A DNA stretch of 53,045 nt from Burkholderiaceae bacterium (GTDB taxonomy: Bacteria; Pseudomonadota; Gammaproteobacteria; Burkholderiales; Burkholderiaceae_E). The position numbers and the translations under genes are program-made. Shown here in pieces: positions 7,151 to 43,229 of this stretch. Every line of letters starts with the position of its first letter. The stretch's first letter is position 1. The notes under the pieces are model-generated. The model saw nothing but the letters and a program-made list of their open reading frames with translations, had not been told where the DNA came from and made no database searches. Where the stretch lies: positions 1 through 53,045 of the forward strand of contig JBAYOD010000001.1 of assembly GCA_041678445.1 (NCBI GenBank). The letters are read 5' to 3'.

Positions 7151-8278
7151 ATGCTTTTCCGGAAGGCGTTGCGGCGCGACCTGCTCAATCTCGCCGGTAT
7201 CGTATTCTCGACCTTGTTCGTGATTCTGCTCACGACCTCGCTGATCCGGCTGCTGGGCCGGGCGGCGGGCGGGCGCGTCGATACGGCTGCAGTGTTGCCA
7301 CTGATCGCGTTCAATGCGATCCATGTGCTGCCGGTGCTGCTCGTACTCACCCTGTACATCTCGGTGCTGATGGCGCTCACCCGCGCCTATCGCGACTCCG
7401 AAATGGTGGTCTGGTTTGCCAGCGGCCAGAGCCTGCTGGCCTGGATCCGGCCAGTCATGGGTTTTGCCGCCCCCTTTGTCGTGGCGATTGCGCTGATCGC
7501 CTTCCTGGTCGCGCCCTGGGCCAACCGTGAGGCTGCCGAATACCATCAGCGTTTCGCCCAGCGCGAGGATGTTTCCCAGGTGACGGCCGGCCAGTTCCGC
7601 GAATCGGTGTCGGCCAACCGGGTCTTCTTCGTCGAGTCGATCGACGAGGTCGAGAATCAGGTCCGCAATGTCTTCGTCACCCAGCGCCAGGGTGATTCGG
7701 TGGTGGTGGTCGTCTCGCGCGGCGGACAGATCGAGGTCCAGCCCAATGGCGACCGTTTCCTCGTGCTCGATGACGGCCGCCGCTACGACGGCAGTCCCGG
7801 GGCGCTCGATTTCCGGCTGATGGAGTTCGATCGCTATGGAATCCGGCTGCAACCTCGTGCGACGGTGCTCAGCGACGAGCGCAGTCGGATCAAGTCGACG
7901 GTGGCCCTGCTTGCCGACCCCGACCCGCGCAACCAGGCCGAACTGCTGTGGCGGATCGGCCTGCCGGTGTCGGCCATCCTGGTCGCGCTGCTGGCGATTC
8001 CACTGTCGGCGATGAATCCGCGGATTGGGCGTTCGGTGAACCTGCTGGCAGCCTTGCTGCTCTATGTCCTGTACAACAATCTGATGTCGGTGATGCAGGC
8101 CTGGGTCGCGCAGGAGCGGATCGGGTTCGGGATCGCCGTCTGGATCGTGCACGCGGCCCTGGCGGCGCTGATCGTCCTGCTGTTCTGGCGGCGCGTGCAC
8201 CTGCCGCGCCGCGCCTTGCTGGCGCGCTTCACCCTGCGCCGGCCGACGGCCCGTCCGCCGGTGGCGGCCCGCTCGTAA
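7151..8278 (+). CDS. lptF: LPS export ABC transporter permease LptF
   Basis: Divergent from pepA; [22 protein letters not shown], multiple TM segments. Confidence 0.95.
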
Positions 8279-9408
8279 TGCTGATCGGCAGCTACCTGAG
8301 GCGCGAGATCATCGTTGCGGTCGGCTTCGTGCTGGTCGGCTTCCTGGCCCTGTTCGCCTTCTTCGACCTGATCAATGAGCTCGAGGATGTCGGCCGTGGC
8401 GGCTACCGCCTGCAGCACGCCGTGGCCTTCGTGCTGCTCGGCCTGCCCTCGCATGTCTACGAACTGATGCCGATCGCCGCCCTGATCGGCAGCATCTACG
8501 CGCTGTCGCAAATGGCCGGTCATTCCGAATATACGGCGATGCGGGCCGCCGGGCTCGGGCGCCGGCGCGCGCTTGGCATCATCGCCCGGATCGGTCTGGT
8601 GCTGGCCATCCTGACCGCGCTGGTCGGCGAACTGCTGTCGCCGCCGGCCGAAAGACTGGCTCGCGACCTGCGGTTGAGCGCCCTGGGTGGCTCGATCAGC
8701 GGCCACTTCCGCTCGGGTCTCTGGGTCAAGGACACCGCCCGGGACGCCGATGGCCAGATCGAACGCTCGCGTTTCGTCAACATCGGCGAACTGGCCGCCG
8801 ATGGAACACTGCGCCAGGTGCGCATCTTCGAGTTCGACAGCAACCTGCGCCTGCAGCGGATGCTCGAAGCCGAGCGGGCAAGCTGGCACGGCGAAACGGG
8901 CTGGACGCTCTACGAAGCACGGGAGGTCCGTTTCGCCGAGAAAGAGGTGCCGGGCGCCGGTCCGGTGGTCAGCACCCGGCTCGAACATGCGACGGAAATG
9001 GACTGGCGCACCGAACTCAAGCCGGAGATCCTCGGGGTGCTCGCAGTCGACCCCGCCCGCATGTCCGGTTCCGACCTCTACAACTACATCGGGCATCTGC
9101 GCGAGAATGCGCAGAACACGCACCCCTACGAGCTCGCGCTGTGGAAGAAGCTCGTCTATCCGTTGGCGGTCATCGTCATGATGGCGCTGGCCCTGCCGTT
9201 CGCCTATCTGCAGGCCCGTGCCGGTGGAACCGGCTACAAGGTGTTCGCCGGGATCATGCTCGGGATCGCCTTCCATTTCATGAACGGCTTGTTCTCGCAT
9301 CTCGGCCTGCTGAACACCTGGCCGCCGCAGCTGTCGGTGGGGCTTCCGAGCATCGTGGTGTTCGTGCTGGCGCTCGGGATGCTGGTGTGGGTGGATCGGG
9401 CGCGGTGA
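8278..9408 (+). CDS. lptG: LPS export ABC transporter permease LptG
   Basis: TAATG overlap with lptF; HSEYTAMRAAG, GLWVKD, YELALWKKLVYP. Confidence 0.95.
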   Translation: MLIGSYLRREIIVAVGFVLVGFLALFAFFDLINELEDVGRGGYRLQHAVAFVLLGLPSHVYELMPIAALIGSIYALSQMAGHSEYTAMRAAGLGRRRALGIIARIGLVLAILTALVGELLSPPAERLARDLRLSALGGSISGHFRSGLWVKDTARDADGQIERSRFVNIGELAADGTLRQVRIFEFDSNLRLQRMLEAERASWHGETGWTLYEAREVRFAEKEVPGAGPVVSTRLEHATEMDWRTELKPEILGVLAVDPARMSGSDLYNYIGHLRENAQNTHPYELALWKKLVYPLAVIVMMALALPFAYLQARAGGTGYKVFAGIMLGIAFHFMNGLFSHLGLLNTWPPQLSVGLPSIVVFVLALGMLVWVDRAR

Positions 9409-9537
9409 CGCGCTGCCGGAACGAACCATCCTTCAGGATTGTCAGAAAATGCCTGAATTCAGCCCGGGAATTGTCGTCAGATTGTCATGGACAAGAAAAT
9501 CATGGACGTGGCGCGCCCGATTGTTTAGGATTCGCCG

Positions 9538-9632
9538 CAATCGATCCGCGAAAGCGGAACCGAGGAGTATCGAGGAGGAGGAGAGGCAGCGACGCTGCCA
9601 TTTGGGGCGCACAGCGATGTGCGCTTTTTTTT
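9538..9632 (+). ncRNA. Candidate small RNA or leader with GAGGAG-rich single-stranded core
   Basis: TGGACG-17 bp-TAGGAT promoter (9503-9531), GAAA-capped hairpin, CGAGGAGTATCGAGGAGGAGGAGA tract, second hairpin, intrinsic terminator. Confidence 0.5.
9607..9632 (+). terminator. Intrinsic terminator
   Basis: gcgcaca-gcga-tgtgcgc followed by T8. Confidence 0.8.
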
Positions 9633-9639
9633 CTGCCTC

Positions 9640-11223
9640 ATGACTGCTCGACTCCAGCACCTGCTTCAGTCTCCTGCCGGCTCCCGGCGCCTGTTCCTGT
9701 CGGCCCTGCTGGTCCTGACGGCACTGCGGACCGCATTGGCCGCGGGTCTGGCGTTCACGGGTGACGAGGCTTACTTCGCGTTCTGGGGCATTTACCCGGC
9801 CTGGGGCTATTACGACCATCCACCGATGGTCGGCTGGTGGCTGGCTGCCCTGGCGGCGCTGTCGACCGAAGCTTTCGTGATGCGGTTGCCCGCGCTCGCG
9901 CTGCCGCCGCTGCTGGCCTGGATTGCGTTCCGGATCGCGCGGCGGCACGGTGAAGTCCTGGGCTGGAATGCGGCGACGCTGACCTTGCTGCTGCCGCTGA
10001 ACGCGGTGAATGTCGCGATCACCTCCGACATTCCGCTGATGCTGTTTGCCGGTCTGTGCGTCTGGGCGTGGCTGCGTGCCTTGCGCACGGGTCGGACGGC
10101 AGACTTCCTGCTGACCGGGCTGATGCTGGCGGGCGCGCTGATGTCGAAGTACTTCGCCGGCCTGCTGGCGCTTGCGCTGTCTGGGCATGCGCTCTGGCGA
10201 CCGCAGCGGCGGCGCCTGGCCGGTCTTCTCTGGGTGATCGTCGGCACGCTGCCGGCGGCGGTGGTCCAGGTCGCCTGGAATGCGCAGAACTGCTGGCCGA
10301 ACGTGATGTTCAACCTGGTCAACCGCCACGAAGACGCCGGGGTGTCGTGGCAGACCCCGGTGCTGTTCGTGCTCTCGGTGCTCTATGTGCTGACCCCGCC
10401 GGTAGCCTGGCGCTTGCTTGGCGGGCGGCGCGATGCCGATGCTGCAGCAGGAAATGTTGCAACCGGGACCGCAACCGAGGCTGCGGCCGAACTCGTCGCG
10501 CTGCGCTGGCTTGCGCTCGTACCTCTGGCGATCCTGGCGCTGCTGTCGCTGTTCAAGACGATCGGCGTGCACTGGCTGGCGAGCTTTGCGCTGCCTGCCG
10601 TACTGGCCTTCGTGTTGATGGCGGGGCCACGGATGCTGGCGCGCGGCGTGATCTGGGCGGGCGCGCTGGCCGTCGCCCAGTGGGTGTTGATCGCGGTGCT
10701 GCTTGCCTTGCCGACCGAGACCTACCGCCACTGGAAAGGCTATCCAGGCCTGGTCATGACGATGCATGTCGATGAACTGGCCGAGGCGCTCGAACCCTGG
10801 CGCGGCCGCTACGCGATCGCTTCGTCGGGCTATTCGCCTGCCGTTACGCTGGGTTACGGCTTGGGCAGCTACGTGTTCGTCTTCGGACCGGGCTCCAGCC
10901 ATGCTCGTCATGACGATATTCTGACCGACCTGCGCGGGCTGGCCGGCAAGGACATCCTGGTCGTTCGCAAGGACGGTGACTATTCGCGCACCGAGTACGA
11001 ACCGTTCTTCGATTCGGTCGCGTATCGGACGCTGGCGTTGCGCGGCGTCGTCTTCCACCTGATCGAGGGGCACGGCTTTCGCTACGAGCCCTACCGCGAC
11101 GAGGTGCTCGAAACGATCCGCCAGCGCTGGTATGCCGTGCCGCAATGGCTGCCGTCGGGATCGTGTTATTTCTGTGACCGGTACTTTCCTGAGCGGACCT
11201 GCCGAAGGAGCGGCAATCCATGA
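9640..11223 (+). CDS. ArnT/PMT-like (GT-C fold) membrane glycosyltransferase
   Basis: DEAYF...WGYYDHPPMVGW, D-x-P, LMSKY motifs, many TM helices, soluble C-terminal domain. Confidence 0.85.
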   Translation: MTARLQHLLQSPAGSRRLFLSALLVLTALRTALAAGLAFTGDEAYFAFWGIYPAWGYYDHPPMVGWWLAALAALSTEAFVMRLPALALPPLLAWIAFRIARRHGEVLGWNAATLTLLLPLNAVNVAITSDIPLMLFAGLCVWAWLRALRTGRTADFLLTGLMLAGALMSKYFAGLLALALSGHALWRPQRRRLAGLLWVIVGTLPAAVVQVAWNAQNCWPNVMFNLVNRHEDAGVSWQTPVLFVLSVLYVLTPPVAWRLLGGRRDADAAAGNVATGTATEAAAELVALRWLALVPLAILALLSLFKTIGVHWLASFALPAVLAFVLMAGPRMLARGVIWAGALAVAQWVLIAVLLALPTETYRHWKGYPGLVMTMHVDELAEALEPWRGRYAIASSGYSPAVTLGYGLGSYVFVFGPGSSHARHDDILTDLRGLAGKDILVVRKDGDYSRTEYEPFFDSVAYRTLALRGVVFHLIEGHGFRYEPYRDEVLETIRQRWYAVPQWLPSGSCYFCDRYFPERTCRRSGNP

Positions 11224-12152
11224 ACCTTCAGCAGTTGCGTTTCGTGTCCGAGACCGCGCGCCATGGCTTCAGCCTGACCCGGGCGGCGCGCGCGATCGGC
11301 ACCTCCCAGCCGGCGTTGTCGCGTGGCATCCTCGAACTCGAGGCCGAACTCGGCGTCGACGTGTTCGTTCGGCACGGCAAGCGCATTCTCGGCCTGACTG
11401 AGCCGGGCAAGGCCATTCTTGCGCGCAGCGAGCGCGTACTCGCCGAGGTGGCCGGCATCGAACAGGTGACTGCGGATTTCCGGGCCCGCGATGATGGCGA
11501 GTTGCGGGTGGCGACCACGCATACGCAGGCCCGTTATGTCCTGCCTGCCGTGGTCGGCGAGTTCCGGCGTCGCTATCCGGCTGTGCGCCTGACCTTGCTG
11601 CAGGGCAGTCCGCGCCAGATCACGGCTTCCGTGCTGGCGCGCGAGGTGGATTTCGCGATCGCGACCGAAGTGCCCGACGAGGCCGACGAACTGCTGTCGA
11701 TTCCGGCCTACGAGTGGGAGCATGTGGTGCTGGTGCCGGCCAGGCATCCGCTCGCCGGCGAGCGGCCATCGCTGCAGGCCCTGGTCAAGTACCCGCTGAT
11801 CACCTACGTCGAGGAGTTCGCTGGCCGCCGGCGGATCGACCGCGCCTTCGCCGAGGCTGATCTCAAGCCCGACGTGGTGCTGGCCGCCATCGACGCCGAC
11901 GTCATCAAGACTTACGTTGGCGTCGGTCTCGGCGTCGGGATCATGGCCGACGTCGCCTACGACGCCGGCCGCGACAAGGGCCTGGTCGCGATGCCGGCCG
12001 GCAACCTGTTCGGCATGAACCGGGCCAAGCTTGCCGTGCGGCGCGACGCCTTCCTGCGCGGTTTCGCCCTGACCTTCATCGAATTGTTCGCGCCCGAGGT
12101 CGACCGCAAGACCTTCGAGAACCTGCTGCGCAACTCGACCAGCACCCGATGA
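11220..12152 (+). CDS. cysB: CysB/Cbl-family LysR regulator
   Basis: MNLQQLRF...TSQPALS...LEAELGV..FVRHGKR; ATTHTQARY; AAIDADVIKTYV. Confidence 0.9.
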   Translation: MNLQQLRFVSETARHGFSLTRAARAIGTSQPALSRGILELEAELGVDVFVRHGKRILGLTEPGKAILARSERVLAEVAGIEQVTADFRARDDGELRVATTHTQARYVLPAVVGEFRRRYPAVRLTLLQGSPRQITASVLAREVDFAIATEVPDEADELLSIPAYEWEHVVLVPARHPLAGERPSLQALVKYPLITYVEEFAGRRRIDRAFAEADLKPDVVLAAIDADVIKTYVGVGLGVGIMADVAYDAGRDKGLVAMPAGNLFGMNRAKLAVRRDAFLRGFALTFIELFAPEVDRKTFENLLRNSTSTR

Positions 12153-12198: not shown

Positions 12199-12274
<76 letters not shown>

Positions 12275-12279
12275 AATGC

Positions 12280-12311
12280 AAGGGCCCGGATAGTCTCCGG
12301 GCCCTTTTTTT
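12280..12311 (+). terminator. Intrinsic terminator after tRNA-Ala
   Basis: aagggcccgga-tagtc-tccgggccctt plus T run. Confidence 0.9.
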
Positions 12312-12352
12312 CGGCATTTCCCCCAGGGACTGGCGCGGGTTCGAGCCTCGCT

Positions 12353-12539
12353 GCGAACGGCACGCAGATCGGCATCGTCTTCGAGACGACCACGCCTTTC
12401 GACACGTCACGTGATCGACGCCACGAAGCTGGCCGGAGCCAGCCGAAATACCCTGAAGCAGCACTTCCGAGATCTGGCCGTACGCGATTATCTGGAGTGG
12501 CACGGCAGCGGACGCAGCGTATGGCCGGGCCTGAAGTGA
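12353..12539 (+). pseudogene. Fic-family protein remnant (two fragments joined by a large deletion)
   Basis: One frame reads ANGTQIGIVFETTTPFDT; another continues ATKLAGASRNTLKQHFRDL...HGSGRSVW*. These resemble the middle and C-terminal winged-helix parts of proteobacterial Fic proteins (recognised from memory). Confidence 0.6.
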
Positions 12540-12761
12540 TGTGGCCAGATCGTCGAATCCGCGCCCTCGTTGGCGGCACTGCCAGCCAGAGTATCGCCGC
12601 GTTGCAGCAGGCCGCGCTGGCCACGCGACCCGAGGGGCTGGGCATTCTGGAGCTGCGGGTGTTCGATTTTCAGAGGTCTTCAGGGTTGCGCTTGCGAGTG
12701 TTCCCATTCATCCCAAGATGCTCCACAAACTGGACTGCTGACTCCAAGAGGCGGCGCTGAC

Positions 12762-12917
12762 GTCGAATGCCGATTCATCGAGGACTCGCTGTGGCTCACG
12801 CAGGCGCTGATGGCCGAGCTGTTTCAGGTCAAGGTGCCGACCATCAACGAGCACCTGAAAACCCTGTACTCCGACGGCGAAATCCAGCCCGAGGCAACCA
12901 TTGGGAAATTCCTGATA
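12762..12917 (+). pseudogene. RhuM-family N-terminal fragment
   Basis: VECRFIEDSLWLTQALMAELFQVKVPTINEHLKTLYSDGEIQPEATIGKFLI; no start codon or RBS, truncated. Confidence 0.75.
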
Positions 12918-12936
12918 GCGGCAGGTGGACTGACGT

Positions 12937-13350
12937 TCAGGTCTCCCACGGGTTGATCAGTTGCACGCCGAGGTCCGCGAAGTCTTTCGTGTTGCGCGTG
13001 ACCAGTGTCAGGTCATGCTCCAGAGCCGTGGCAGCCAACATGCCGTCGATCACCGGGAGCGTGCGCCCCGCGCTGGCCTGCACGCGGCCCCAACGGTCGG
13101 CAACCGCAGCGTCGATGTTCAGTAGCCGTCCGATGAAATAGTTGGGCAATTCCACTTCCAGCCAGTCCGTGAGGGTCTGGCGGAACGCGGGGTTGGCCAC
13201 GCCTTCGATACCTTTGCGGATTTCGCCGCGGCTCAAGACCGAGAGGTAGAGCGACTGGCGTGGGCGCGCCTGCATCCACGCCACCACGTTGGTGTCGGCT
13301 TTCCTGTTCCGTAGTTCGGACAGGACGTTGGTGTCGACGAGGTAGCTCAA
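12937..13350 (-). CDS. vapC: VapC PIN-domain toxin
   Basis: LVDTNVLSE, GEIRKG, VIDGMLAATALEHDLTLVTRNTKDF; 4-nt overlap with the antitoxin. Confidence 0.93.
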   Translation of the reverse strand: MSYLVDTNVLSELRNRKADTNVVAWMQARPRQSLYLSVLSRGEIRKGIEGVANPAFRQTLTDWLEVELPNYFIGRLLNIDAAVADRWGRVQASAGRTLPVIDGMLAATALEHDLTLVTRNTKDFADLGVQLINPWET

Positions 13351-13598
13351 AACGTGATCTCGCGCGGCAGGCTGCGGCTACGTTCGAACTGGATTTCATC
13401 GTGGCCCGACAGCGGCGAGGCACGCATGAAGTCCACCAGCGACTGCTCGTTGCCGGACAAGCGGTCAAACAATTCGCGCGACACCACGACTGCCACCGAT
13501 TTCCCGTGCAGGGTGATGTCCTGCGGGCCTTCTTGGACCGCGCGCTTGACCAGTTCCGAGAACCGCGCCTTGGCGTTTTGCATTTGCCAGCTTTGCAT
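13347..13598 (-). CDS. Phd/YefM-family antitoxin
   Basis: MQSWQMQNAKARFSELV...GPQDITLHGKSVAVVVS; directly upstream of the PIN toxin. Confidence 0.92.
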   Translation of the reverse strand: MQSWQMQNAKARFSELVKRAVQEGPQDITLHGKSVAVVVSRELFDRLSGNEQSLVDFMRASPLSGHDEIQFERSRSLPREITF

Positions 13599-13612
13599 GA
13601 CCAACTCTTTAA

Positions 13613-13640
13613 GACCTGATAAGTCTGACCTGACAAGTCT
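13613..13640. promoter_or_regulatory. Probable TA autoregulatory operator (tandem 14-bp repeat)
   Basis: gacctgataagtct gacctgacaagtct, each unit with GAC...GTC inverted ends, 14 bp upstream of the antitoxin start. Confidence 0.6.
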
Positions 13641-13708
13641 GAATCTTGCCAGATTCCCACCTCTATGGCAAACCGCATTTCCATCCTCGTCGCGCTCGAA
13701 GGCGCTGA

Positions 13709-14056
13709 TACTTCCAGCGATGGATGCGCAAGACCGATCTGACCGATGTTGCCCTGTGCAAGGCCGTCGAGGAGATGGCTGGCGGGCTGATCGACGCTGA
13801 TCTCGGCGGCGGCGTGGTGAAGAAGCGCATCGCGCTGGCCGGACGTGGCAAGCGCGGAGGGGCGAGAACGCTGGTTGCCACGAACAAGGGCAAGCGCTGG
13901 TTCTTCGTGTTCGGCTTCGAGAAAAACGACCGGGCCCACATCAGTGACGACGAACTGGAAGGCTTGCAAGCCATCGCCGCCGACCTGCTGGCTCGCACCG
14001 GAAAGCAGTTGGATGAAGCCGTCGCCGACGGCATGTTGCAGAAGATCTGCCAATGA
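13709..14056 (+). pseudogene. RelE/HigB-like toxin, 5'-truncated (internal ATG at 13724)
   Basis: YFQRWMRKT...GLIDADLGGGVVKKRIALAGRGKRGGART...FGFEKND; in-frame TGA at 13706-13708 where the N-terminus should be. Confidence 0.75.
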
Positions 14057-14211
14057 CCACGAAGACCAAAGCCAGGAGCCGCGTCCTTGAAGCCGTCCAT
14101 GAGACGGCCAACGATCTGCATCGCTTGGGTTTCATCGACAAGCGCCCCAGCGGCCCGTCGCAGAGGTTGCTGGACATCATCGAGCGCAAGGGGCTGGAAG
14201 CCGTCCTCTGA
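14053..14211 (+). pseudogene. Xre/HigA-like antitoxin with in-frame deletion of the HTH (52 aa)
   Basis: MTTKTKARSRVLEAVHETANDLHRLGFIDKR joined directly to PSGPSQRLLDIIERKGLEAVL; ATGA overlap with the toxin. Confidence 0.75.
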
Positions 14212-14270
14212 CCGCCGTGGCGAAAATCACCAACAGGAAGACGTTGTCTCGGTGTGACGAGCCCGTTCCC

Positions 14271-14834
14271 TCAACCCGGCTTGCGCGCCAGCATCGTGGC
14301 GAACTGCAAGCGGGCGCCATTGTGCATGGTGCCAGGATCCTCGTTGTACTTGACGAGTTCCCAGCCTGCATACGCCGCACTCAGTTCACCTGGCTTCAGG
14401 GTAAACGGGAAATTCATGGGACAAGGGTATGCATCGGTATCCATCGCGCAGACGATCAGGTTGTACCCCCCGGGCAGGGTGCGATGCTGCATGTCGGACA
14501 ACACCGCGCCCACGCGCGACGGATCAATGAACATCAGGGTCACGGTGCAGGCGATCAAACCATAATCCGCACCAATCGCGGCTTGCTGAATGTCATAGAC
14601 CTGCGGCCTGATCGTACGGATCCCTTCCTGATCGACGATGGACTGCAGCGTCGCGATGGCGTTGGGGTTGACATCGACAGCCGTGACCTCGAAACCACGC
14701 TGACTCAGGTACAGGGCATTGCGCCCGCTCGAGCAACCCATGTCCAGGGCATTGCACGGCTCGACGAGTTCGCACGCCTTCACGATTTCGCTGTGGGCCG
14801 GGGTCAGGCCGTAACGGCTGTTCAGATCTTCCAT
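14271..14834 (-). CDS. tehB: Tellurite resistance SAM-dependent methyltransferase
   Basis: YGLTPAHSEI, ALDMGCSSGRNALYL, TVTLMF, GGYNLIVCAMDT, FPFTLKPGEL, KYNED. Confidence 0.92.
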   Translation of the reverse strand: MEDLNSRYGLTPAHSEIVKACELVEPCNALDMGCSSGRNALYLSQRGFEVTAVDVNPNAIATLQSIVDQEGIRTIRPQVYDIQQAAIGADYGLIACTVTLMFIDPSRVGAVLSDMQHRTLPGGYNLIVCAMDTDAYPCPMNFPFTLKPGELSAAYAGWELVKYNEDPGTMHNGARLQFATMLARKPG

Positions 14835-14985: not shown

Positions 14986-14993
14986 CGGTTCTC

Positions 14994-15092
14994 GTCATCA
15001 AGAATTGGGCCGACGCCCATGCCAACCTGCCCGCCCGGGCAAGGTGGATCGCGAAAGCGGATGTGGCTCCCGAGGGGGCAACGAAGCGGGCA
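14994..15092 (+). ncRNA. SAM-I/IV-type riboswitch aptamer
   Basis: CATC-AAGA (P1/J1-2); P2 tgggc-cgac-gccca; P3 CCAACC...AGGTGG; cgc-GAAA-gcg; GATG closing P1; P5 gctcc-cgag-ggggc; 3' tail gcgggca complementary to tgcccgc in P3 (pseudoknot); upstream of metK. Confidence 0.75.
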
Positions 15093-15100
15093 CAGCGTCG

Positions 15101-15131
15101 GCCCTCCCGTGAAACGGAGGGCTTTTTGTTT
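15101..15131 (+). terminator. Riboswitch-linked intrinsic terminator
   Basis: gccctcc-cgtgaaac-ggagggc-tttttgttt; its 5' arm overlaps an alternative 10-bp helix (15007-15016 with 15095-15104). Confidence 0.85.
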
Positions 15132-15262
15132 TCACTTCTTGTTTTCAGTGTCTGCCGTCGATTCGCGCACCATCCAGATCTGTCTGGAGGCGGCGAGGCT
15201 CTGCGGCTGATCTTGCTGAAGTAGAGCGAAGGGCGTGGTCTGCCCGCTGCAAAGCAAATGAC

Positions 15263-15322
15263 TGGGGGGATTTGATCCGGATTGCCGCCCCCGACAGATC
15301 GTCGAACGCGGCTAAACAGGAG
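15263..15322 (+). ncRNA. SAM-II riboswitch, copy 1
   Basis: ggggg-GATTTGATCCG-GATTGC-cgccccc-(loop)-GCGGCTAAA-CAGGAG follows the SAM-II pattern (GAUUURA...UUGC...GYRGCUAAA) and ends on the RBS. Confidence 0.8.
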
Positions 15323-15329: not shown

Positions 15330-15578
15330 ATGTTTATCAGCTTGCCTCCCGGCGTACCTGCCCGGTTGGTCACCGTGTCGGGATCATCTCGCATTCGCAT
15401 CGAAATCGAGGGGTTGGCGCCACTTGGCTACGACCCTGAAGACAAGCGGTTGTTTGTGTTCGGCGATGCACGCCGCAGACCCGTGGAATCACCACTGTCG
15501 GTGTTTCAAACTCGTGCCTTGCTGCGTGCTCTGGCAGGGTACGCGGCTGAACGACGGGCCTTCTACGCCAGTTCTTGA
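15330..15578 (+). CDS. Hypothetical 82-aa protein downstream of a SAM-II riboswitch
   Basis: AGGAG RBS 7 nt before ATG; MFISLPPGVPARLVTVSG...RAFYASS; stop lies just before the second repeat copy. Confidence 0.65.
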   Translation: MFISLPPGVPARLVTVSGSSRIRIEIEGLAPLGYDPEDKRLFVFGDARRRPVESPLSVFQTRALLRALAGYAAERRAFYASS

Positions 15579-15614
15579 TTGGTCGTGTGGTCTGCCCGCT
15601 GCAGAGCACTGGAC

Positions 15615-15674
15615 CGGGGAGATTTGATCCAGCTTGCCGCCCCCGACACATCGTCGAATGCGGCTAAAGAGGAG
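15615..15674 (+). ncRNA. SAM-II riboswitch, copy 2
   Basis: cgggga-GATTTGATCCA-GCTTGC-cgccccc-g-(loop)-GCGGCTAAA-GAGGAG immediately before the metK start. Confidence 0.85.
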
Positions 15675-15679: not shown

Positions 15680-16873
15680 ATGTTTGTTCGTAATGGTCTG
15701 TTTTCCTCGGAGTCTGTCTCCGAGGGCCACCCCGACAAGTTGGCCGACCGCATCTCCGATGCGGTGCTCGACGAGTTCCTGGGTCACGACCCATTGGCAC
15801 GCGTTGCCTGCGAAACCTTGCTGGCTGACCAGTGCGTCGTGGTCGCAGGCGAGTTCAAGACCCGCAGCCCTGAAACCTTCCGCTCCGTGCGCGAACGGGC
15901 TGTGACGATCGTGACCAAGGTTCTGCACGACGCGGGCTATCGCGACAGCGCCACGGGTATCGACCCGGAGCGCTGCGAAATCCAGGTCCGGTTCAACGGC
16001 CAGTCGGCCGATATCAACCGGGGCGTGGACCGTGGAGATGGCGTGATCGGTGCCGGAGACCAGGGCCTGATGTTCGGGTACGCCTGCGATGACACCCCCG
16101 AACTGATGCCGGCGCCCATCGTGTTCGCACACCGGCTTGTGCGTCGCCAGGCCGAACTGCGCCGAAATGGCGTCCTTCCCTGGCTCGGGCCAGATGCCAA
16201 ATCTCAGGTGACGTTCCGGTACGAAGCGGGGCGACCCGTGGCGATTGAAGCCGTCGTGCTGTCCACGCAGCATGATGCGGAAATCGATACCGAGGCGCTT
16301 CGCGCGGCGGTGAGTCGCGAGATCATCGACGTCGTGATCCCCGCCAGGCTTCGGGCGCCGAACTATCGCGAATTGATCAACCCCACCGGCCGCTTCGTGA
16401 CCGGCGGACCGAAGGGAGATACCGGGCTCACCGGTCGCAAGATCATCGTCGACACCTACGGCGGCGCGGCGCCCCACGGCGGCGGAGCGTTTTCCGGGAA
16501 GGACCCGTCGAAAGTCGACCGGTCGGCTGCCTACATGGCGCGTTTTCTCGCCAGGCAAGTGGTGGCACGTGGCTGGTCGACCCGGGCATTGGTCCAGCTC
16601 GCCTACGCGATCGGCGTGGCCGAGCCGGTGAGCTTCCTGGTCGAAGCCGAGGGTGTGACGCGTGCGCGCAGCGCCGAGATCGTCGACGCCTTGCGCCGGG
16701 AGTTCGACCTGACCCCGGCCGGGATCATCCGGTGCCTCGACCTCCAGCGGCCCATTTACTACCCGACCGCGGCCTACGGCCACTTCGGCAGGGATGACCT
16801 GGATCTGCCGTGGGAGGGCGTTCGACTGGAAAAGCGAGGGAGGACGGATGGCAACTACATCAAAAGCGCGTGA
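15680..16873 (+). CDS. metK: S-adenosylmethionine synthetase (island-borne)
   Basis: SESVSEGHPDK, GAGDQGLMFGYA, DAKSQVT, GGPKGDTGLTGRKIIVDTYGG, GGAFSGKDPSKVDRSAAY, YGHFGR; alternative starts 15674/15677. Confidence 0.97.
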   Translation: MFVRNGLFSSESVSEGHPDKLADRISDAVLDEFLGHDPLARVACETLLADQCVVVAGEFKTRSPETFRSVRERAVTIVTKVLHDAGYRDSATGIDPERCEIQVRFNGQSADINRGVDRGDGVIGAGDQGLMFGYACDDTPELMPAPIVFAHRLVRRQAELRRNGVLPWLGPDAKSQVTFRYEAGRPVAIEAVVLSTQHDAEIDTEALRAAVSREIIDVVIPARLRAPNYRELINPTGRFVTGGPKGDTGLTGRKIIVDTYGGAAPHGGGAFSGKDPSKVDRSAAYMARFLARQVVARGWSTRALVQLAYAIGVAEPVSFLVEAEGVTRARSAEIVDALRREFDLTPAGIIRCLDLQRPIYYPTAAYGHFGRDDLDLPWEGVRLEKRGRTDGNYIKSA

Positions 16874-17504
16874 TCGCCACTTGCTGTTTCACGGGGAGCT
16901 GTCAGACGCTCCAGGGCGCAACGAATCGTGGGACGAGTACCTCCGATACCGGGGTGACAACCGGTGGGAGCTGATCGCCGAGGGGACAGATTTTTCAGGC
17001 ACCGGCGTCGCCGGGACGATCAGGGAGGTGATGAGCACCAAGGCAATGGTGAAGTGGGCCCTGGAACGGGACGAAGAGACCCGGGAAGCCTCAAGAAGAG
17101 GCGCCGTTCCGCTCGACGAGCCCGATGATGACGATCCGCCAAGGCAGTTCGGACCGCATGCGGCACGCCTGCGTGAGATTGCCGCCAGTGTGGGCGCTAC
17201 CTATTGTCTGTCGCGCCTGGACGGCTGGCTTGCAGGCTCATGGCCACCGAAGCAGCGCGCGGCCCGTATTCTGGACATCAAGGGTGTCACGCGGCGGAGC
17301 GTGTGGATCGGTGTCCATAGCGGCGTGTACGAGGTCGACAGCAATCTGGGCCCGGCCTACCTGTATCCGCCTGGCGCCGATCGGGCAGCGAAGCTCGTTC
17401 TGAAGTCAGAGACTTCCACGTCGGCAGGTTGGGTCGTGAAGGTTCCCATCAAGCTGATGGCGAAGATCGAGGCTCTGAAGCCCGACCTGGAGTCGCTGGG
17501 GTAA
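16848..17504 (+). CDS. Hypothetical 218-aa protein overlapping the metK 3' end
   Basis: GGAGGA RBS before ATG 16848; protein-like composition; no recognisable motif. Confidence 0.7.
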   Translation: MATTSKARDRHLLFHGELSDAPGRNESWDEYLRYRGDNRWELIAEGTDFSGTGVAGTIREVMSTKAMVKWALERDEETREASRRGAVPLDEPDDDDPPRQFGPHAARLREIAASVGATYCLSRLDGWLAGSWPPKQRAARILDIKGVTRRSVWIGVHSGVYEVDSNLGPAYLYPPGADRAAKLVLKSETSTSAGWVVKVPIKLMAKIEALKPDLESLG

Positions 17505-21954: not shown

Positions 21955-24483
21955 TCAGGCAGCCCGGGGCAAGGGTTCGGCCATCCGCTGTGCGAGATGG
22001 GCGAGGGCGGCTTCGACCTGGTCGATCAGGATCAGGCAGAGGTCGCCGGGCTGCAGCCCGGCCAGCGCACGGTCGATTGCCGCCAGTTCGCCATGGACTT
22101 CATCGATGTCGGTGACCCGGCGCGCCTTGCCGAAGCCGCTGCGCAGCAGCGCGCAGACTTCGCCATCGGCGCGACCGCGCTGGCAGGCGTCCTCGTAGAG
22201 CAGCACGGCATCGAAGGCGTCGCCGAGCAGCTCGGCCTGGCGACGGATGTCCTCGTCGCGGCGGTCGCCGGCGGCGCTGATGACGACGAGCCGGCGCTGG
22301 GCCGGCAGCGCGTCGACGGCGCGCACCAGGGCTGCGATCGCATCCGGATTGTGGCCGTAGTCGGCGATGATGGTTGCACCGCGGTAGTCGAACCGGTTGA
22401 AGCGGCCCGGCGCACTGCCGGGATCGGAGACGAAGCTGCGCAGACCGGCTTCGATGGCCTCCCAGGGCAGTCCGGCGGCCCAGCCGGCCGCCATGGCAGC
22501 CAGGGCGTTCTCCACCTGGAACGGGATCGTGCCACCGCCGGTCAGCGGGATGTCGTCCAGTTCGATGCGGTGTCGGGTCAGCCCGTCGCGGGCCACCAGG
22601 CCGCCGTCCTCGACCTGCACGACGCGACCGCCGCCGGCGCAGTGGGCGGCCAGCACCGGTTGCTGCGGGTCGGTGGCAAAGAAGATCACCGAGGCCGGGC
22701 AGTGCCCGGCCATCGCGGCGACGATCGGGTCGGCCGCATTGAGGACGGCGCTGCCGCTGGCGGCGACATTCTCGACGATCACTCGCTTGACCGCGGCCAG
22801 TTCGTCGACCGTGTGGATGTGGTCGAGGCCGAGGTGGTCGCCGCTGCCGAGGTTGGTGACCACGGCAACCTGGCAGCGGTCGAAGCCCAGGCCTTCGCGC
22901 AGGATGCCGCCGCGCGCGGTTTCGAGCACCGCGAAATCGACATCCGGATGGGCCAGCACCTTGCGCGCGCTGCGTGGGCCGCTGCAGTCGCCGGTGTCGA
23001 TCCGCCGGTCGGCGACATGGACGCCGTCGGAGTTCGTCATGCCGACCTGGTGGCCGGCCAGGCGCGCCATGTGCGCCAGCAGCCTGACCGTGGTCGTCTT
23101 GCCATTGTTGCCGGTGACGGCGATCAGGGGGATGCGGCCGTCGTCACCGGTGTCGAACAGGGTGTCGATGATCGCTTCGCCGACCGGCTGACCGCGGCCG
23201 AACGATGGCGACAGGTGCATGCGCAGTCCGGGCGCGGCGTTCACTTCGACGATGCCGCCGTCCTGGGCTTCGAGCGGCTCGCGCACCGTCGTGCAGACGA
23301 CGTCGACGCCGCAGATGTCGAGGCCGACCGTCTGCGCGGCGACGACGGCGCGGGCAGCCAGCTCCGGGTGGACTTCATCGGTCACGTCGGTCGCGCTGCC
23401 GCCGGTGCTCAGGTTGGCGTTGTTGCGCAGCACGACGCGCTCGCCGCGCTCGGGAACGGTATCAGGGGAGTGACCCTGCGCGGCGAGCCGGGCCAGGGCG
23501 ATCTCGTCGAGCCGGATCCGGGTCAGCGCCGTGGCATGACCATCGCCGCGGCGCGGATCGGTGTTGAGCAGGTCGACGAGCTGGCGCACCGTGCTGGCGC
23601 CGTCACCGATTACCTGCGGGGGGTCGCGACGAGCGGCAGCGACCATCCGGTCGCCGACGACCAGCAGCCGGAAGTCCTGGCCCGGCAGGAGCTTTTCGAC
23701 CAGGACTTCCGAGCCGTGCTCGCTGGCGGCATCGAAGGCGGCGCGGATCTGTTCGCGGCCGCTCACGCCGACCGCCACGCCCTTGCCCTGATTGCCATGG
23801 CGTGGCTTGACCACTACCGGCTCGCCGATCAGCCTGGCCACTTCCCAGGCTGCGTCGGCGCTGTCGACCGAGTGGCCCGGCGGCACCGGAATGCCGGCGG
23901 CGTGCAGCAGAGTCTTGGTCAGTTCCTTGTCCTGGGCGACGGCTTCGGCGACGGCGCTGGTGCGGTCGATCTCGGCCGCCTGGATCCGGCGCTGGCGATG
24001 GCCCCAGCCGAACTGGACCAGGCTGCCTTCGGTCAGGCGGCGAAACGGGATTCCCCGGTTGAGCGCGGCGTCGACGATCGCGCCGGTGCTCGGGCCCAGG
24101 CGCTGCGCTTCGTCGAGTTCGCGCAGCTGTGCCACGGCAGCCGGCAGATCGAACGGCTCAGCCGGATCGGCGAAAGTCTCGGCCGTTCCGGCCTCGCAGC
24201 CTGGGTCGATGGCCTTGCAGGCTCGCGCGGCAAGGGCGACGGCGAGCCGGCCAACGGCCTCCTCGCTGTACTCGACGACGACGCGCCAGACGCCGGCCTC
24301 GCGGGTCGGGGCGGTCAGTGAGAACGAGACCGGGCAGCCAGCCTGTTGCTGCAATCTGAGTGCCTGGGATTCGAGCGCACGGGCGGTGGATTCGTCTTCG
24401 AGGCCTGTCACGATCGTTTCGATGACGGTGCGGCGGCTCCAGAGGTTGGGGCCTCGCAGGGCGCGGATACGAGTCAGCTTCAT
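21955..24483 (-). CDS. cphA: Cyanophycin synthetase (downstream paralog, intact Mur-ligase part)
   Basis: RALRGPNLWS, LGPSTG, ATP-grasp (VVKPRHGNQGKGV, EVNAAPGLRMH), GNNGKTTT, ETARGGILREGLGFD, PGRFN, DYGHN. Confidence 0.93.
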   Translation of the reverse strand: MKLTRIRALRGPNLWSRRTVIETIVTGLEDESTARALESQALRLQQQAGCPVSFSLTAPTREAGVWRVVVEYSEEAVGRLAVALAARACKAIDPGCEAGTAETFADPAEPFDLPAAVAQLRELDEAQRLGPSTGAIVDAALNRGIPFRRLTEGSLVQFGWGHRQRRIQAAEIDRTSAVAEAVAQDKELTKTLLHAAGIPVPPGHSVDSADAAWEVARLIGEPVVVKPRHGNQGKGVAVGVSGREQIRAAFDAASEHGSEVLVEKLLPGQDFRLLVVGDRMVAAARRDPPQVIGDGASTVRQLVDLLNTDPRRGDGHATALTRIRLDEIALARLAAQGHSPDTVPERGERVVLRNNANLSTGGSATDVTDEVHPELAARAVVAAQTVGLDICGVDVVCTTVREPLEAQDGGIVEVNAAPGLRMHLSPSFGRGQPVGEAIIDTLFDTGDDGRIPLIAVTGNNGKTTTVRLLAHMARLAGHQVGMTNSDGVHVADRRIDTGDCSGPRSARKVLAHPDVDFAVLETARGGILREGLGFDRCQVAVVTNLGSGDHLGLDHIHTVDELAAVKRVIVENVAASGSAVLNAADPIVAAMAGHCPASVIFFATDPQQPVLAAHCAGGGRVVQVEDGGLVARDGLTRHRIELDDIPLTGGGTIPFQVENALAAMAAGWAAGLPWEAIEAGLRSFVSDPGSAPGRFNRFDYRGATIIADYGHNPDAIAALVRAVDALPAQRRLVVISAAGDRRDEDIRRQAELLGDAFDAVLLYEDACQRGRADGEVCALLRSGFGKARRVTDIDEVHGELAAIDRALAGLQPGDLCLILIDQVEAALAHLAQRMAEPLPRAA

Positions 24484-24510
24484 CGGGGAGGCGTCCGGAG
24501 GAGGGGCGGT

Positions 24511-26769
24511 TCAGGCGGCGACTCGACGCTCGCGCGCGGACGGCGTCGGTGCATGGCGTGTCGTGGCCGGATCATCGTTCGCGAGCGTGGCTTGCGTCGG
24601 CAGGGCTTCGCCTTCCCATTGGGCCGATTCGATACCAACGCGCAGCAGCTCGAGCGGCAGCCCGAGCGCCCAGCCCGCCGCGGTTGCGGCGAGCACGGCT
24701 TCGAGGGCGAACGGACGGTCGCTGCCATCGAGCATCATCACCGAATCGAGATGCGTGACGATGGTCTCGGTGCCGCCCTGGGCGAGCACGATCAACCCGT
24801 TGCGGGTATGGACCGACCGGCCGCCGCGCGCCCGGTGTCCGTCGATGGCGGGCAGGGCCGGGTCGGCTGCATACAGGATGACCTCGCCGTCGCTGAGCGC
24901 CGCCATGCGCACGGCCAGCGGGTCGGCCGCGTTGAGAATCGAAGCCCCGTCGGCGAGCACCACGTCGACCTGGGTGCGCAGCAGGTCGTAGACCTGCTCG
25001 ATCTCGGTGATGTCGCGCTCGGGCAGGGCATCTTCGCATTCGACGCTGGTCACGATCCCGATCCGGCAACGATCGTAGGCAAGGCCTTCGGTGGCGATCG
25101 TGCGGGCGCCGTTCTCGATGACGGCGGCGTCGAGCAGGCGGTTCAGCAGCAGCCTGTGTCCCGATTCGAAGTCGGTGCAGTCACGTTGTTCGAGGGTGCG
25201 CCCGTCGAGGTACAGGCCGTCGGCGCAGGCCAGGCCGGTGCGCTGACCGGCCAGGCGCATCAGCCGGGCGACCAGGTGGGCGATCGTTGCGCCGCCGCGT
25301 CGTCCGGTGATGCCGACGACGGGGATGCGGCCCGATTCGTCGTCGGGGAACAGATGGTCGACGATGGCCCGGCCCACCGGGCGGGGCTGACCTTCGGCCG
25401 GTTTCAGGTGCATCAGCAGACCCGGCCCGGCGTTGACTTCGACGATCCCGCCGCCTTGCGCTTCGAGGGGCTGACTGATGTCTTCAGCGACCAGGTCGAT
25501 GCCGGCGATGTCCAGGCCGACCGTGCGGGCTGCCAGCGCGGCGGCGGCCGCCACCGACGGATGAACGGCTTCGGTGACGTCGATGGCGACGTTGCCGTTG
25601 CGCTGGATCAGGACCCGGGTGCCGGCCGGCGGCACGCTGTCCGCTTCGAAGCCCTGGTTGGCAAGTTCGATCCGGGCGGCCGAGTCGATGCGCACCGGAT
25701 TGAGCGGTGAATCCTCGCCGCGCCCGCGCCGGGGGTCGGTGTTCAGCTGCAAGGCGATCAGCTTCTCGATGCTCTGCTCGCCATCGCCAGTGACCCAGGC
25801 GGGCTCGCCGCGGGCAGCGGCCACCAACTGGCCGCCGACGATCAGCAGCCGATGCTCGTTGCCGGTGATGAAGCGCTCGACGATGACGCCCGAGCCTTCG
25901 GCTGCCGCGACTTCCCAGGCCGCGGCGACCTGCTCGCGCGTGGTCAGCCGAGTGAAGACACCGCGGCCGTGGTTGCCATCACAGGGCTTGATCACCACCG
26001 GCAGGCCGATCTCCTGCGCAACTTCCCAGGCCTGTCCGGCGTCGTCGACCCGGCGGCCTTCCGGCACGGGCACACCGACCGTTTGCAGCAGCTGGCGAGT
26101 GAGTTCCTTGTCACAGGCGATGCCCTCGGCCAGCGCGCTGGTCAGTTCGGTCTCGGCCGTCCAGATCCGTTTCTGCCGCGAACCGTAGCCGAGCTGCACC
26201 AGGTTGCCGTCGTTGAGCCGGATGGCGGGAATCCTGCGTTCGGTGGCGGCGGCTTCGACGATGCAGGCGGTGCTGGGCCCCAGGCAGACCCGGTCGGCCA
26301 GCTCGCGCAGCGTGGCGACACGCCCTTCGACGTCGAAGGGACGGTCTTCGATCGCAGCCATGATCAGGTCGCGGGCGCAGTACAGGGCCGGTTTGCCCAG
26401 TTCGAATTCCGGGGCGCTGACCACGACCTTGTAGACGCCGCGCTCGGAGGTTTCGCGGGCCTTGCCGAAACCTGCCGGCACGCCGGCCAGACTCTGCAGT
26501 TCGAGGGTGACGTGTTCGAGGATGTGGCCGACCCAGGTGCCTTCCCTGAGGCGGCGCAGAAAGCCGCCCCGCACACCGTAGCTGCAGCGATGCTCGACCA
26601 GGGTGGGCAGCCAGCTCGACAGTCTCTCGTAGAAACCGGGCAGGGTATTGGACGGGTGGTCCTCGAACTCGCCGATGTCGACCAGCGCCTCGATCACAGG
26701 GGGATAAGTCCAGGAACTCGGGCCGCGCAGAGGGGTCAATCGGAGGATGTCGATGAAGCGCTTCTTCAC
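24511..26769 (-). CDS. cphA: Cyanophycin synthetase-like (upstream paralog, degenerate Mur part)
   Basis: LRGPSSW, Cx19HxxEH N-domain motif, ATP-grasp (KPCDGNHGRGV, EVNAGPGLLMH); P-loop replaced by GRRGGAT; C-terminal domain absent. Confidence 0.9.
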   Translation of the reverse strand: MKKRFIDILRLTPLRGPSSWTYPPVIEALVDIGEFEDHPSNTLPGFYERLSSWLPTLVEHRCSYGVRGGFLRRLREGTWVGHILEHVTLELQSLAGVPAGFGKARETSERGVYKVVVSAPEFELGKPALYCARDLIMAAIEDRPFDVEGRVATLRELADRVCLGPSTACIVEAAATERRIPAIRLNDGNLVQLGYGSRQKRIWTAETELTSALAEGIACDKELTRQLLQTVGVPVPEGRRVDDAGQAWEVAQEIGLPVVIKPCDGNHGRGVFTRLTTREQVAAAWEVAAAEGSGVIVERFITGNEHRLLIVGGQLVAAARGEPAWVTGDGEQSIEKLIALQLNTDPRRGRGEDSPLNPVRIDSAARIELANQGFEADSVPPAGTRVLIQRNGNVAIDVTEAVHPSVAAAAALAARTVGLDIAGIDLVAEDISQPLEAQGGGIVEVNAGPGLLMHLKPAEGQPRPVGRAIVDHLFPDDESGRIPVVGITGRRGGATIAHLVARLMRLAGQRTGLACADGLYLDGRTLEQRDCTDFESGHRLLLNRLLDAAVIENGARTIATEGLAYDRCRIGIVTSVECEDALPERDITEIEQVYDLLRTQVDVVLADGASILNAADPLAVRMAALSDGEVILYAADPALPAIDGHRARGGRSVHTRNGLIVLAQGGTETIVTHLDSVMMLDGSDRPFALEAVLAATAAGWALGLPLELLRVGIESAQWEGEALPTQATLANDDPATTRHAPTPSARERRVAA

Positions 26770-27008
26770 TGTGTCTATCCGTTGGAATCTGAATCGTTCT
26801 TCGGGCAGGGCCTTCGTGGGGCCGTGGCGTCTACAACGCAGCGTCTGGTCTGCGGTTTACGTTCTTTCCGGATCGGCGCTGTTGACGGTGTCATTTCCTG
26901 ATCGAGCCTTGCGACGGCCTGCCGCGCGCCTGCGGGTCGTCAGATTCGATCAGATTCGGCACCCCCCGGATGCGTTACGCTGCCGCCCTCACCGCGTGTC
27001 TGCGACGC

Positions 27009-41781: not shown

Positions 41782-43229
<1,448 letters not shown>

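What the first reader, a model, noticed from the sequence alone, without database searches (positions are those of the whole stretch)
15330..15578. Unknown 82-aa protein under apparent double SAM-riboswitch control
Seen: good RBS embedded in a SAM-II-like element, and the ORF fills the gap between the repeats. I recognise no family. Known: genes behind SAM riboswitches are nearly always Met/SAM metabolic genes. Inference: a new SAM-linked small protein, for example a MetK partner, SAMase inhibitor or toxin.
Basis: partly seen in the sequence, partly recalled or inferred. Interest (0 to 1): 0.75.

Follow-up and report, generated by a model that had tools for sequence, protein, structure and literature searches.

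The report
Small protein in SAM-sensing mobile cassette
The 82-amino-acid gene is a conserved member of a rare, unnamed protein family carried in a mobile bacterial gene cassette behind RNA switches predicted to turn it on when the methyl donor SAM runs low; deletions likely moved it directly behind the switch, and it is probably an accessory binding protein of that low-SAM (possibly anti-phage) response rather than a partner of the neighbouring SAM synthetase.

Summary
The ORF is a real gene. It has 13 database homologs (38-83% identity), dN/dS 0.12-0.35 against three related loci, and a confident model (five strands plus one helix) with no family or fold match. Upstream lie a SAM-I/IV riboswitch with terminator and a SAM-V-like pseudoknot that covers the ribosome-binding site. 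Both show covarying pairs that predict OFF when SAM is bound. The second repeat copy controls the accessory metK, not this ORF. In the three other loci with the gene, the order is SAM-I/IV, DUF3293, SAM-V-like, an 86-aa gene (X87), then this gene, with no metK downstream. Here DUF3293 is internally deleted and X87 is lost, so the direct riboswitch position looks secondary and a dedicated MetK partner is unlikely. The cassette is the interesting part: 74 genome loci, DUF3293 with a phage SAM-lyase-like fold (Z 9.1), spare MetK, variable cargo, and restriction/BREX neighbours in at least 15. Best reading: an accessory subunit of a low-SAM response, possibly to phage SAM lyases; this is untested. 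The scan noted this cassette type before on other DNA, but not this protein.

The parts
14990..15095 (+). SAM-I/IV riboswitch aptamer (Rfam RF01725)
   Evidence: 58.2 bits vs cut-off 41.1, E 4.4e-7
15007..15104 (+). Predicted anti-terminator helix: 15007-15016 (aptamer P2) pairs with 15095-15104 (overlaps the terminator 5' arm)
   Evidence: 10-bp complement; 8 bp or more in 47 of 57 leaders with a terminator-like hairpin vs 4 of 17 without, in several compensatory sequence versions; MFE fold holds this helix
15100..15133 (+). Intrinsic-terminator-like hairpin; its 3' arm also holds the SD-like GGAGG of DUF3293
   Evidence: conserved in related leaders
15139..15224 (+). Remnant of DUF3293 (SAM-lyase-fold family): first and last codons only, about 330 nt deleted at a 6-nt microhomology (15184-15189), out of frame; 13-nt duplication at 15122-15147
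   Evidence: blastn against intact L087/L017; repeat D16; Pfam PF11697 on an intact relative; translation
15235..15322 (+). Repeat copy 1: SAM-V-like pseudoknot with the SD (AGGAG 15318-15322) of the 82-aa ORF
15330..15578 (+). 82-aa ORF (ORF82), member of an unnamed family; first codons replaced and C-terminal tail shorter than in most relatives (88-157 aa)
15587..15674 (+). Repeat copy 2: SAM-V-like pseudoknot with the SD of metK
15680..16873 (+). Accessory SAM synthetase MetK (start could also be 15677 or 15674); 57% identical to the housekeeping MetK on contig C327
   Evidence: TIGR01034 499 bits; Pfam; tblastn
16848..17504 (+). ORF218, unknown; directly follows ORF82 in L017/L044 and L087 (67-70% identical)
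   Evidence: no family
12199..14834 (.). Island context: tRNA-Ala(CGC), fragment matching PADLOC PDC-S05, vapBC, relE with a 52-aa downstream ORF, tehB methyltransferase; GC 59-62% vs 67.8% genome

Best explanation
The 82-aa ORF is a conserved gene of a mobile operon behind two RNA switches that are predicted to open when SAM falls, and it likely encodes a non-enzymatic binding subunit of a response to SAM draining such as phage SAM lyases would cause. Steps. (1) Shown by sequence and covariation, binding inferred: without SAM the SAM-I/IV leader would form an anti-terminator and read through, and the SAM-V-like element would free the SD; SAM would close both (transcription, then translation). 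(2) Shown: in its other three loci the gene follows X87 with stop and start codons 2 nt apart, behind intact DUF3293, and is followed by ORF218 in two. (3) Inferred: in this lineage deletions removed DUF3293 and X87 and fused ORF82 to the switch's start site, and a second switch-plus-metK unit entered behind it, trimming its tail. (4) Inferred: the full cassette would refill SAM with a spare MetK, with lyase-fold DUF3293 possibly a decoy, to keep SAM-dependent restriction/BREX working; ORF82 would be optional cargo acting with X87/ORF218 or a host protein, not with MetK.
For: Real gene (about 0.9): 13 homologs at 38-83% identity; dN/dS 0.12-0.14 vs L087, 0.20-0.23 vs L017, 0.34-0.35 vs L091, with most changes at third positions; AF2 pLDDT 89, pTM 0.76. 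In run X16, contigs with the same layout show 3 changes in ORF82 (2 silent, 1 to the family-consensus Pro) against 11 changes and 4 gaps in a 159-nt contig over the DUF3293 remnant. SAM-OFF logic (about 0.8); SAM-V mechanism from PMC6061858 (passages). Rearrangement (about 0.85): gene maps, junctions, hybrid look of copy 2, and one X13 contig with the same aptamer-plus-metK (1 difference in 854 nt) behind a different 5' flank. Cassette-restricted: matches in 3 of 50 cassette-bearing genomes, all inside the cassette; 1 of 400 order genomes, the same locus; P0010 is fused to another cassette family and P0011 begins with translated SAM-I/IV sequence. Conflict link (about 0.35): DUF3293 model best matches T3 SAM lyase (Z 9.1, rmsd 2.8, 99 aligned; next Svi3-3 Z 6.0; also the top two Foldseek rows, E 0.04 and 0.18); SAM-dependent RM/BREX genes within 5 kb in at least 15 of 74 loci; cargo includes ADP-ribosylglycohydrolase, phosphatases, HD domain, TY-chaperones; T3 SAM lyase blocks BREX and inhibits MetK (10.1101/2023.02.27.530186, abstract and passages).
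Against: No evidence of what ORF82 binds; 'non-enzymatic' rests on size and lack of a recognisable motif, yet T15, R23, D35, D46 and R75 are invariant in 15 of 15 rows and could form an active or binding site. dN/dS among the relatives is weaker (0.39-0.77), the antisense frame sharing third positions also gives 0.25-0.46, and only 4 DNA sequences were available. The SAM-V-like element is below Rfam cut-offs. A SAM-destroying fold switched on at low SAM is paradoxical; DUF3293 shows no sequence match to T3 SAM lyase, only a G-E-S/T-Q spacing pattern without the Tyr. Neighbour counts have no control set and mobile islands are rich in defence genes anyway. No RM or BREX gene was found in this window and no N6_Mtase match over cut-off in this genome. 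Only three other ORF82 loci are known, with 2-7 kb downstream.
Confidence: 0.4

Rival explanations
1. Metabolic passenger: the cassette is a mobile SAM-homeostasis unit (spare MetK for SAM-consuming methyltransferases of islands), and ORF82 is cargo that has drifted behind a convenient promoter and switch, with no phage-related role.
For: MetK is the commonest first gene after the element (21 of 53); the housekeeping metK of this genome has its own SAM-II-like leader; cargo differs strongly between loci; tehB and DNA methyltransferases nearby consume SAM.
Against: DUF3293 is the first gene in 44 of 74 loci and has a SAM-lyase-like fold; none of the 10 X87-type loci has metK in the 1.5-5 kb held, yet they keep the switches.
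Confidence: 0.25
2. In this lineage ORF82 is a decaying remnant: a once functional gene that lost its neighbour X87, its first codons and its tail, in a cassette already broken at DUF3293.
For: DUF3293 deleted, X87 absent, tail shorter than in most homologs; other fragments in the island.
Against: The whole conserved core is intact; SD spacing of 7 nt is kept, as for X87 in relatives; the X16 variant keeps the frame while the remnant decays; tails vary from a few to about 70 residues across the family.
Confidence: 0.15
3. One reading: ORF82 binds MetK or a phage SAM lyase directly, as regulator or inhibitor.
For: It lies directly upstream of metK under the same kind of switch here; SAM lyase-MetK complexes exist.
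Against: 0 of 3 other ORF82 loci have metK downstream in the DNA held; among the 74 genome loci, 26 have a MetK-like gene and none of these has ORF82; adjacency here looks secondary.
Confidence: 0.1
4. ORF82 (alone or with X87/ORF218) is a growth-arrest effector released when SAM collapses, an abortive-infection guard against SAM-lyase phages.
For: Double OFF control suits a toxic product (inference); McrBC and a PLD-domain gene flank L087; toxin-antitoxin genes in the island.
Against: No similarity to a known toxin by family or fold; SAM also falls in methionine starvation, which would make a lethal output costly (established knowledge).
Confidence: 0.1

Closest known systems
Bi-mechanism tandem SAM riboswitches: SAM-II/SAM-V (149 cases) and SAM-I/IV followed by SAM-II (2 cases) in Sherlock et al. 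2022, PMC9481103 (passages)
   Same: A transcriptional SAM switch with terminator followed by a translational SAM switch for the same gene.
   Different: Here 53 of 74 loci of one SAM-I/IV subtype have the second element within 1.1 kb, in 37 with DUF3293 between; it is missed by Rfam cut-offs; most controlled genes are not Met/SAM enzymes; the context is mobile islands.
SAM-V riboswitch (Rfam RF01826; Huang and Lilley 2018, PMC6061858, passages)
   Same: H-type pseudoknot, conserved third strand, P3 hairpin, short P2a that pairs with the SD.
   Different: Score far below cut-off; GC-rich Betaproteobacteria-type sequence rather than marine alphaproteobacterial; P2a of 3 bp; SAM binding untested.
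Phage SAM lyases (T3 gp0.3, PDB 7OCK/8BB1; Svi3-3, 6ZM9; Guo et al. 2021, PMC7877911, passages) - applies to DUF3293, not to ORF82
   Same: Best structural match of the DUF3293 model; invariant Gly, Glu, Ser and Gln in similar order.
   Different: 10-13% identity, no profile match, no Tyr at the equivalent spacing; bacterial, predicted to be expressed at low SAM; broken in this window.
Small beta-meander plus C-terminal helix folds (cryptic polo box 4nkb Z 5.2, Pur-alpha Z 4.6, SpoVG Z 4.3, DUF4160 models TM about 0.55)
   Same: Antiparallel sheet packed on one long helix.
   Different: All scores are at background level; no homology or function can be drawn.

Membership tests
SAM-I/IV riboswitch RF01725 (14990-15095) | Covariance-model score above gathering threshold | tested here: met
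   58.2 vs 41.1 bits
SAM-I/IV riboswitch RF01725 (14990-15095) | Expression platform that alternates with the aptamer | tested here: met
   Terminator and covarying anti-terminator, 47 of 57 leaders
SAM-I/IV riboswitch RF01725 (14990-15095) | Binds SAM | not testable with these tools
   Needs in-line probing or ITC
SAM-V riboswitch RF01826 (repeat copies) | Score above gathering threshold | tested here: not met
   23.1 vs 41 bits for copy 1; copy 2 not listed. Works like SAM-V, not filed as a member.
SAM-V riboswitch RF01826 (repeat copies) | P1/P2 pseudoknot plus P3 hairpin | tested here: met
   94.9% of cells paired, 6 of 14 pairs with two-sided change, 0 of 500 shuffles, slid controls 37-64%; structure was drawn by hand from these sequences, which favours it
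SAM-V riboswitch RF01826 (repeat copies) | Short P2a helix that covers the Shine-Dalgarno sequence | tested here: met
   3 pairs, 96.4% paired, 8 cells with two-sided change
SAM-V riboswitch RF01826 (repeat copies) | Binds SAM and rejects SAH | not testable with these tools
   Needs binding assay
SAM-II riboswitch RF00521 (repeat copies) | Score above threshold; no P3 hairpin | tested here: not met
   13.3 and 13.9 vs 36 bits; P3 present, absent in SAM-II per PMC6061858
Phage SAM lyase family (for intact DUF3293 of relatives) | SAM-lyase fold | tested here: met
   VIA Z 9.1, rmsd 2.8, 99 residues to 7ock_L, only match with Z 8 or more; Foldseek top two rows but E above 0.001
Phage SAM lyase family (for intact DUF3293 of relatives) | Conserved Gly, Glu, Gln (and Tyr) at the SAM site | tested here: inconclusive
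   Invariant G92, E102, S104, Q124 resemble T3 G55, E68, T70, Q94 by order only; no residue-level structural alignment; hhalign found no match
Phage SAM lyase family (for intact DUF3293 of relatives) | Cleaves SAM to MTA and homoserine lactone; trimer | not testable with these tools
   Needs enzyme assay
Phage SAM lyase family (for ORF82) | SAM-lyase fold or sequence | tested here: inconclusive
   No SAM lyase among listed matches; predicted topology is five strands then one helix
Any Pfam, PHROGs, NCBIfam or PADLOC family (for ORF82) | Profile match | tested here: not met
   0 families
MetK (TIGR01034) (15680-16873) | Full-length match above cut-off, three Pfam domains | tested here: met
   499 vs 309 bits

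The most novel reading that the evidence does not exclude
A riboswitch-guarded counter-counter-defence: mobile cassettes sense the SAM collapse caused by phage SAM lyases and answer with a spare MetK, a lyase-fold decoy (DUF3293) and swappable effectors such as X87-ORF82-ORF218, while the SAM-V-like RNA doubles as the recombination junction at which cargo genes are exchanged.
Probability: 0.25. Interest if true: 0.85.

Novelty: new variant of a known kind. Interest (0 to 1): 0.55.

Why it matters
Phage SAM lyases disable type I restriction and BREX by destroying SAM and inhibiting MetK; my paper searches showed no bacterial answer to this. A cassette of SAM-OFF switches over a spare MetK, a lyase-fold protein and unknown small proteins is a directly testable candidate, and it would extend riboswitches from metabolism to sensing infection. 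It also gives about 50 copies of a SAM-V-like RNA that Rfam misses, in a tandem order reported only twice. ORF82 itself is a rare, optional part (3 of 74 loci), so it matters mainly as an entry point.

Tried and rejected
Family searches for ORF82, X87, ORF218: none. PDB by sequence for ORF82 and DUF3293: nothing significant. Fold searches of ORF82: Foldseek no E below 1; VIA best Z 5.2, background; ESM Atlas no usable hit for ORF82, and only scores under 0.9 for X87. ORF82 not found in viral contigs, phages or plasmids, nor in 171 other genomes of the family. L019, L020 and P0013 rejected as chance matches. Complex prediction X87 + ORF82: no answer, score 0.00; no evidence either way; the one job was not spent on MetK. 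X87 similarity of the P0012 tail is weak (hhalign E 0.002-0.015, probability 3-13%), a lead only. No RNA holder listed. No sigma-70-like promoter found. No att repeat of the tRNA 3' end in the window; the second match is another tRNA-Ala gene on C243, so island ends are not defined; 30-36 kb is equally low in GC. Misassembly rejected. No contig joined across the repeats without ORF82 in the 7 runs laid. Paper searches: 'DUF3293' 0 papers; 'SAM lyase' + 'riboswitch' 2 listed, one checked and irrelevant; searches listed nothing on such a cassette (listings only); PMC12839542 mentions SAM lyase only in its references.

Full report
Observation. The ORF at 15330-15578 is open and encodes 82 residues, with AGGAG 7 nt upstream. 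It lies between two 88-nt repeats, 88% identical. Rfam finds a SAM-I/IV riboswitch at 14990-15095 above cut-off and weak SAM-V/SAM-II matches in the repeats, below cut-off. A terminator-like hairpin follows the first aptamer. Behind the second repeat lies a full metK, 57% identical to the housekeeping copy on another contig. The region follows a tRNA-Ala and holds vapBC, relE and tehB at 59-62% GC against 67.8% for the genome. Contigs from two studies not flagged as possible sources span the whole arrangement with one difference each, so it is not a misassembly.

The protein is real. Searches gave 13 accepted cluster representatives of 81-343 aa at 38-83% identity; one 1390-aa hit (P0013) was dropped as chance. 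Alignment A2 (15 rows, including P0017 and the L017 copy) shows a conserved core of about 80 residues and variable tails. Nei-Gojobori dN/dS of the window gene is 0.12-0.14 against L087, 0.20-0.23 against L017 and 0.34-0.35 against L091; among those three it is 0.39-0.77. Shifted frames give 0.64-10.6, except the antisense frame that shares third positions (0.25-0.46). AlphaFold2 gives pLDDT 89: five strands and a 24-residue C-terminal helix. No sequence family or fold match rose above background.

Its native context differs from the window. An exact 25-nt pattern from the SAM-I/IV core found 74 loci in GTDB genomes, mostly titled Betaproteobacteria or Burkholderiales. These are selected by that pattern and include pairs from one genome and near-identical elements, so they are not independent. 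DUF3293 is the first gene in 44 of 74. A SAM-V-like element follows within 1.1 kb in 53 of 74. The first gene after it is MetK in 21, X87 in 10, an AAA ATPase in 10, another unknown family in 1, and unassigned or cut off in 11. ORF82 occurs in 3 of 74 (L044, L087, L091; L017 and L018 from metagenomes match L044 in the stretches compared). In all three the order is SAM-I/IV, intact DUF3293, SAM-V-like element, X87, ORF82; the X87 stop and ORF82 start are 2 nt apart; ORF218 follows in L044 and L087, overlapping the stop in L087; no metK lies in the 2-7 kb held downstream. Whole-genome searches found the family in 3 of 50 cassette-bearing genomes (50 of the 70 I had listed), each time in the cassette, in 1 of 400 order genomes, at the same coordinates as the G239 match, and in 0 of 171 family genomes. 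Two database proteins point to the same origin: P0010 is ORF82 fused to a family that follows metK in L002, and P0011 starts with a stretch that reads like translated SAM-I/IV sequence.

The window is a rearranged version (inference from alignments). About 330 nt of DUF3293 are missing at a 6-nt microhomology. X87 and the first codons of ORF82 are gone, and the new start keeps the 7-nt SD spacing of X87. Copy 2 has the 5' flank of the X87-type leaders and the 3' end of the metK-type leaders L093/L057, whose metK region is 84% identical. One X13 contig carries the same aptamer and metK behind another flank, breaking at 15612. Relatives in the same genus show other versions: switch-terminator-switch-metK with nothing between (L003), and DUF3293 between (L002). 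In run X16, contigs of similar depth with the window's layout differ at 3 sites in ORF82 (2 silent, 1 to the consensus Pro) but at 11 sites plus 4 gaps over the DUF3293 remnant. This hints that ORF82 stayed under selection after the move; numbers are small and the contigs may be of different strains.

Regulatory logic. Bases 15007-15016 of the aptamer are complementary to 15095-15104, which overlap the terminator. A complement of 8 bp or more is present in 47 of 57 distinct leaders with a terminator-like hairpin and 4 of 17 without, in several compensatory versions; the ligand-free MFE fold holds this helix, though it also keeps a shifted hairpin downstream. For the repeat element, 46 of 52 distinct copies were aligned (6 near-duplicates or cut copies left out). 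P1, the pseudoknot P2 and a P3 hairpin pair in 94.9% of cells, with two-sided changes at 6 of 14 pairs, and a 3-bp P2a pairs with the SD. P3 and an SD-covering P2a mark SAM-V and give translational OFF on SAM binding (PMC6061858, passages). Both switches are thus predicted OFF with SAM; binding is untested. SAM-I/IV followed by SAM-II was seen twice in a published census (PMC9481103, passages; its supplements were not read and may list some of these loci). The SAM-I/IV variant class was described from metagenomes (PMC2864571, passages; additional files not read).

What the cassette may do. A model of intact DUF3293 (33 rows; 32 of 41 listed copies plus L017; pLDDT 93) matches T3 SAM lyase best (Z 9.1, rmsd 2.8, 99 residues; next Svi3-3, Z 6.0); Foldseek ranks two SAM lyases first but with E 0.04 and 0.18. 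Sequence comparison with T3 found nothing. The invariant G, E, S, Q recall the conserved lyase residues (PMC7877911, passages; 10.1101/2023.02.27.530186, passages) by order only. Pfam scans of 119 of 190 downstream and 114 of 243 upstream cluster representatives show ADP-ribosylglycohydrolases, phosphatases, HD and TY-chaperone cargo, and RM, BREX, McrBC and GmrSD neighbours: SAM-dependent RM/BREX genes in at least 15 of 74 loci, any defence gene in at least 20, without a control set. T3 SAM lyase defeats BREX by cleaving SAM and inhibiting MetK (abstract). A SAM-OFF cassette with spare MetK fits an answer to that. Against it: an active lyase at low SAM would be harmful, this window holds no RM gene, and plain SAM homeostasis explains metK equally well.

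Verdict. I favour an optional binding subunit of a low-SAM operon (0.4) over metabolic passenger (0.25), decaying remnant (0.15), MetK or lyase binder (0.1) and arrest effector (0.1). My cassette reading was noted and the DUF3293 fold job was sent, before the look-ups. Earlier scan notes describe the same kind of cassette on other DNA and gave me three paper leads (PMC9481103, PMC6061858, PMC2864571) and some wording; they are not independent support. Look-ups with ORF82 and X87 returned nothing. Absence from print rests, in a library that lacks most subscription papers. Interest 0.55; new variant of a known kind.

Noticed in passing
window 15139-15224; intact in L017:5189-5617 and 44 of 74 genome loci: DUF3293 (PF11697) model matches phage SAM lyases best (Z 9.1) and sits under a predicted SAM-OFF switch; 0 papers hold the term DUF3293.
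   Followed up: partly
L087:4147-4404 (-), 10 of 74 loci: X87, a 76-105-aa unnamed family that takes the place of metK directly behind the SAM-V-like element; not folded alone.
   Followed up: partly
L005, L007, L015, L035, L051, L053 and others: Same leader type in front of a MoxR-type AAA ATPase, a vWA-like protein and, in L030, L051 and L053, a divergent MetK-like gene (31-32% identity).
   Followed up: partly
L021, L034, L057, L062 and others: Many SAM-I/IV copies have a changed P1/J1-2 segment (CAUU rather than CAUC, varied linker) yet L002 and L003 still pass the Rfam cut-off; ligand specificity unchecked.
   Followed up: no
G000:C327, upstream of housekeeping metK; G000:C181 near 2064: SAM-II-like elements of a second sequence type in the own genome; the same type occurs in cassette loci L026, L030, L061, L063, L070.
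   Followed up: no
P0003, P0006, P0007, P0009, P0018: Long ORF82 homologs end in a conserved NVV/NVI-x-hydrophobic-x-(F/S)R motif after a variable linker; it resembles ClpX-adaptor docking tails (recalled, untested). The window protein lacks it.
   Followed up: no
L096 and L097 (viral contigs): The cassette also occurs on IMG/VR contigs: DUF3293-switch-metK with a second switch (L096), and DUF3293-switch-X87-like-ORF218 (L097).
   Followed up: partly
L102 (plasmid pPNAP04, NC_008760) 8004-12035: DUF3293, small ORF, YbjN protein and ADP-ribosylglycohydrolase in one operon between transposases on a cultured-strain plasmid; riboswitches there not checked.
   Followed up: no
window 12570-12956 and 14053-14211: Gene fragments in the island: a piece matching PADLOC PDC-S05 and a 52-aa ORF behind relE that may be a shortened antitoxin.
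   Followed up: no
window 21958-29827 and 41586-47740: Ordinary host clusters: cyanophycin synthetases with ABC transporter, and a suf Fe-S operon.
   Followed up: no
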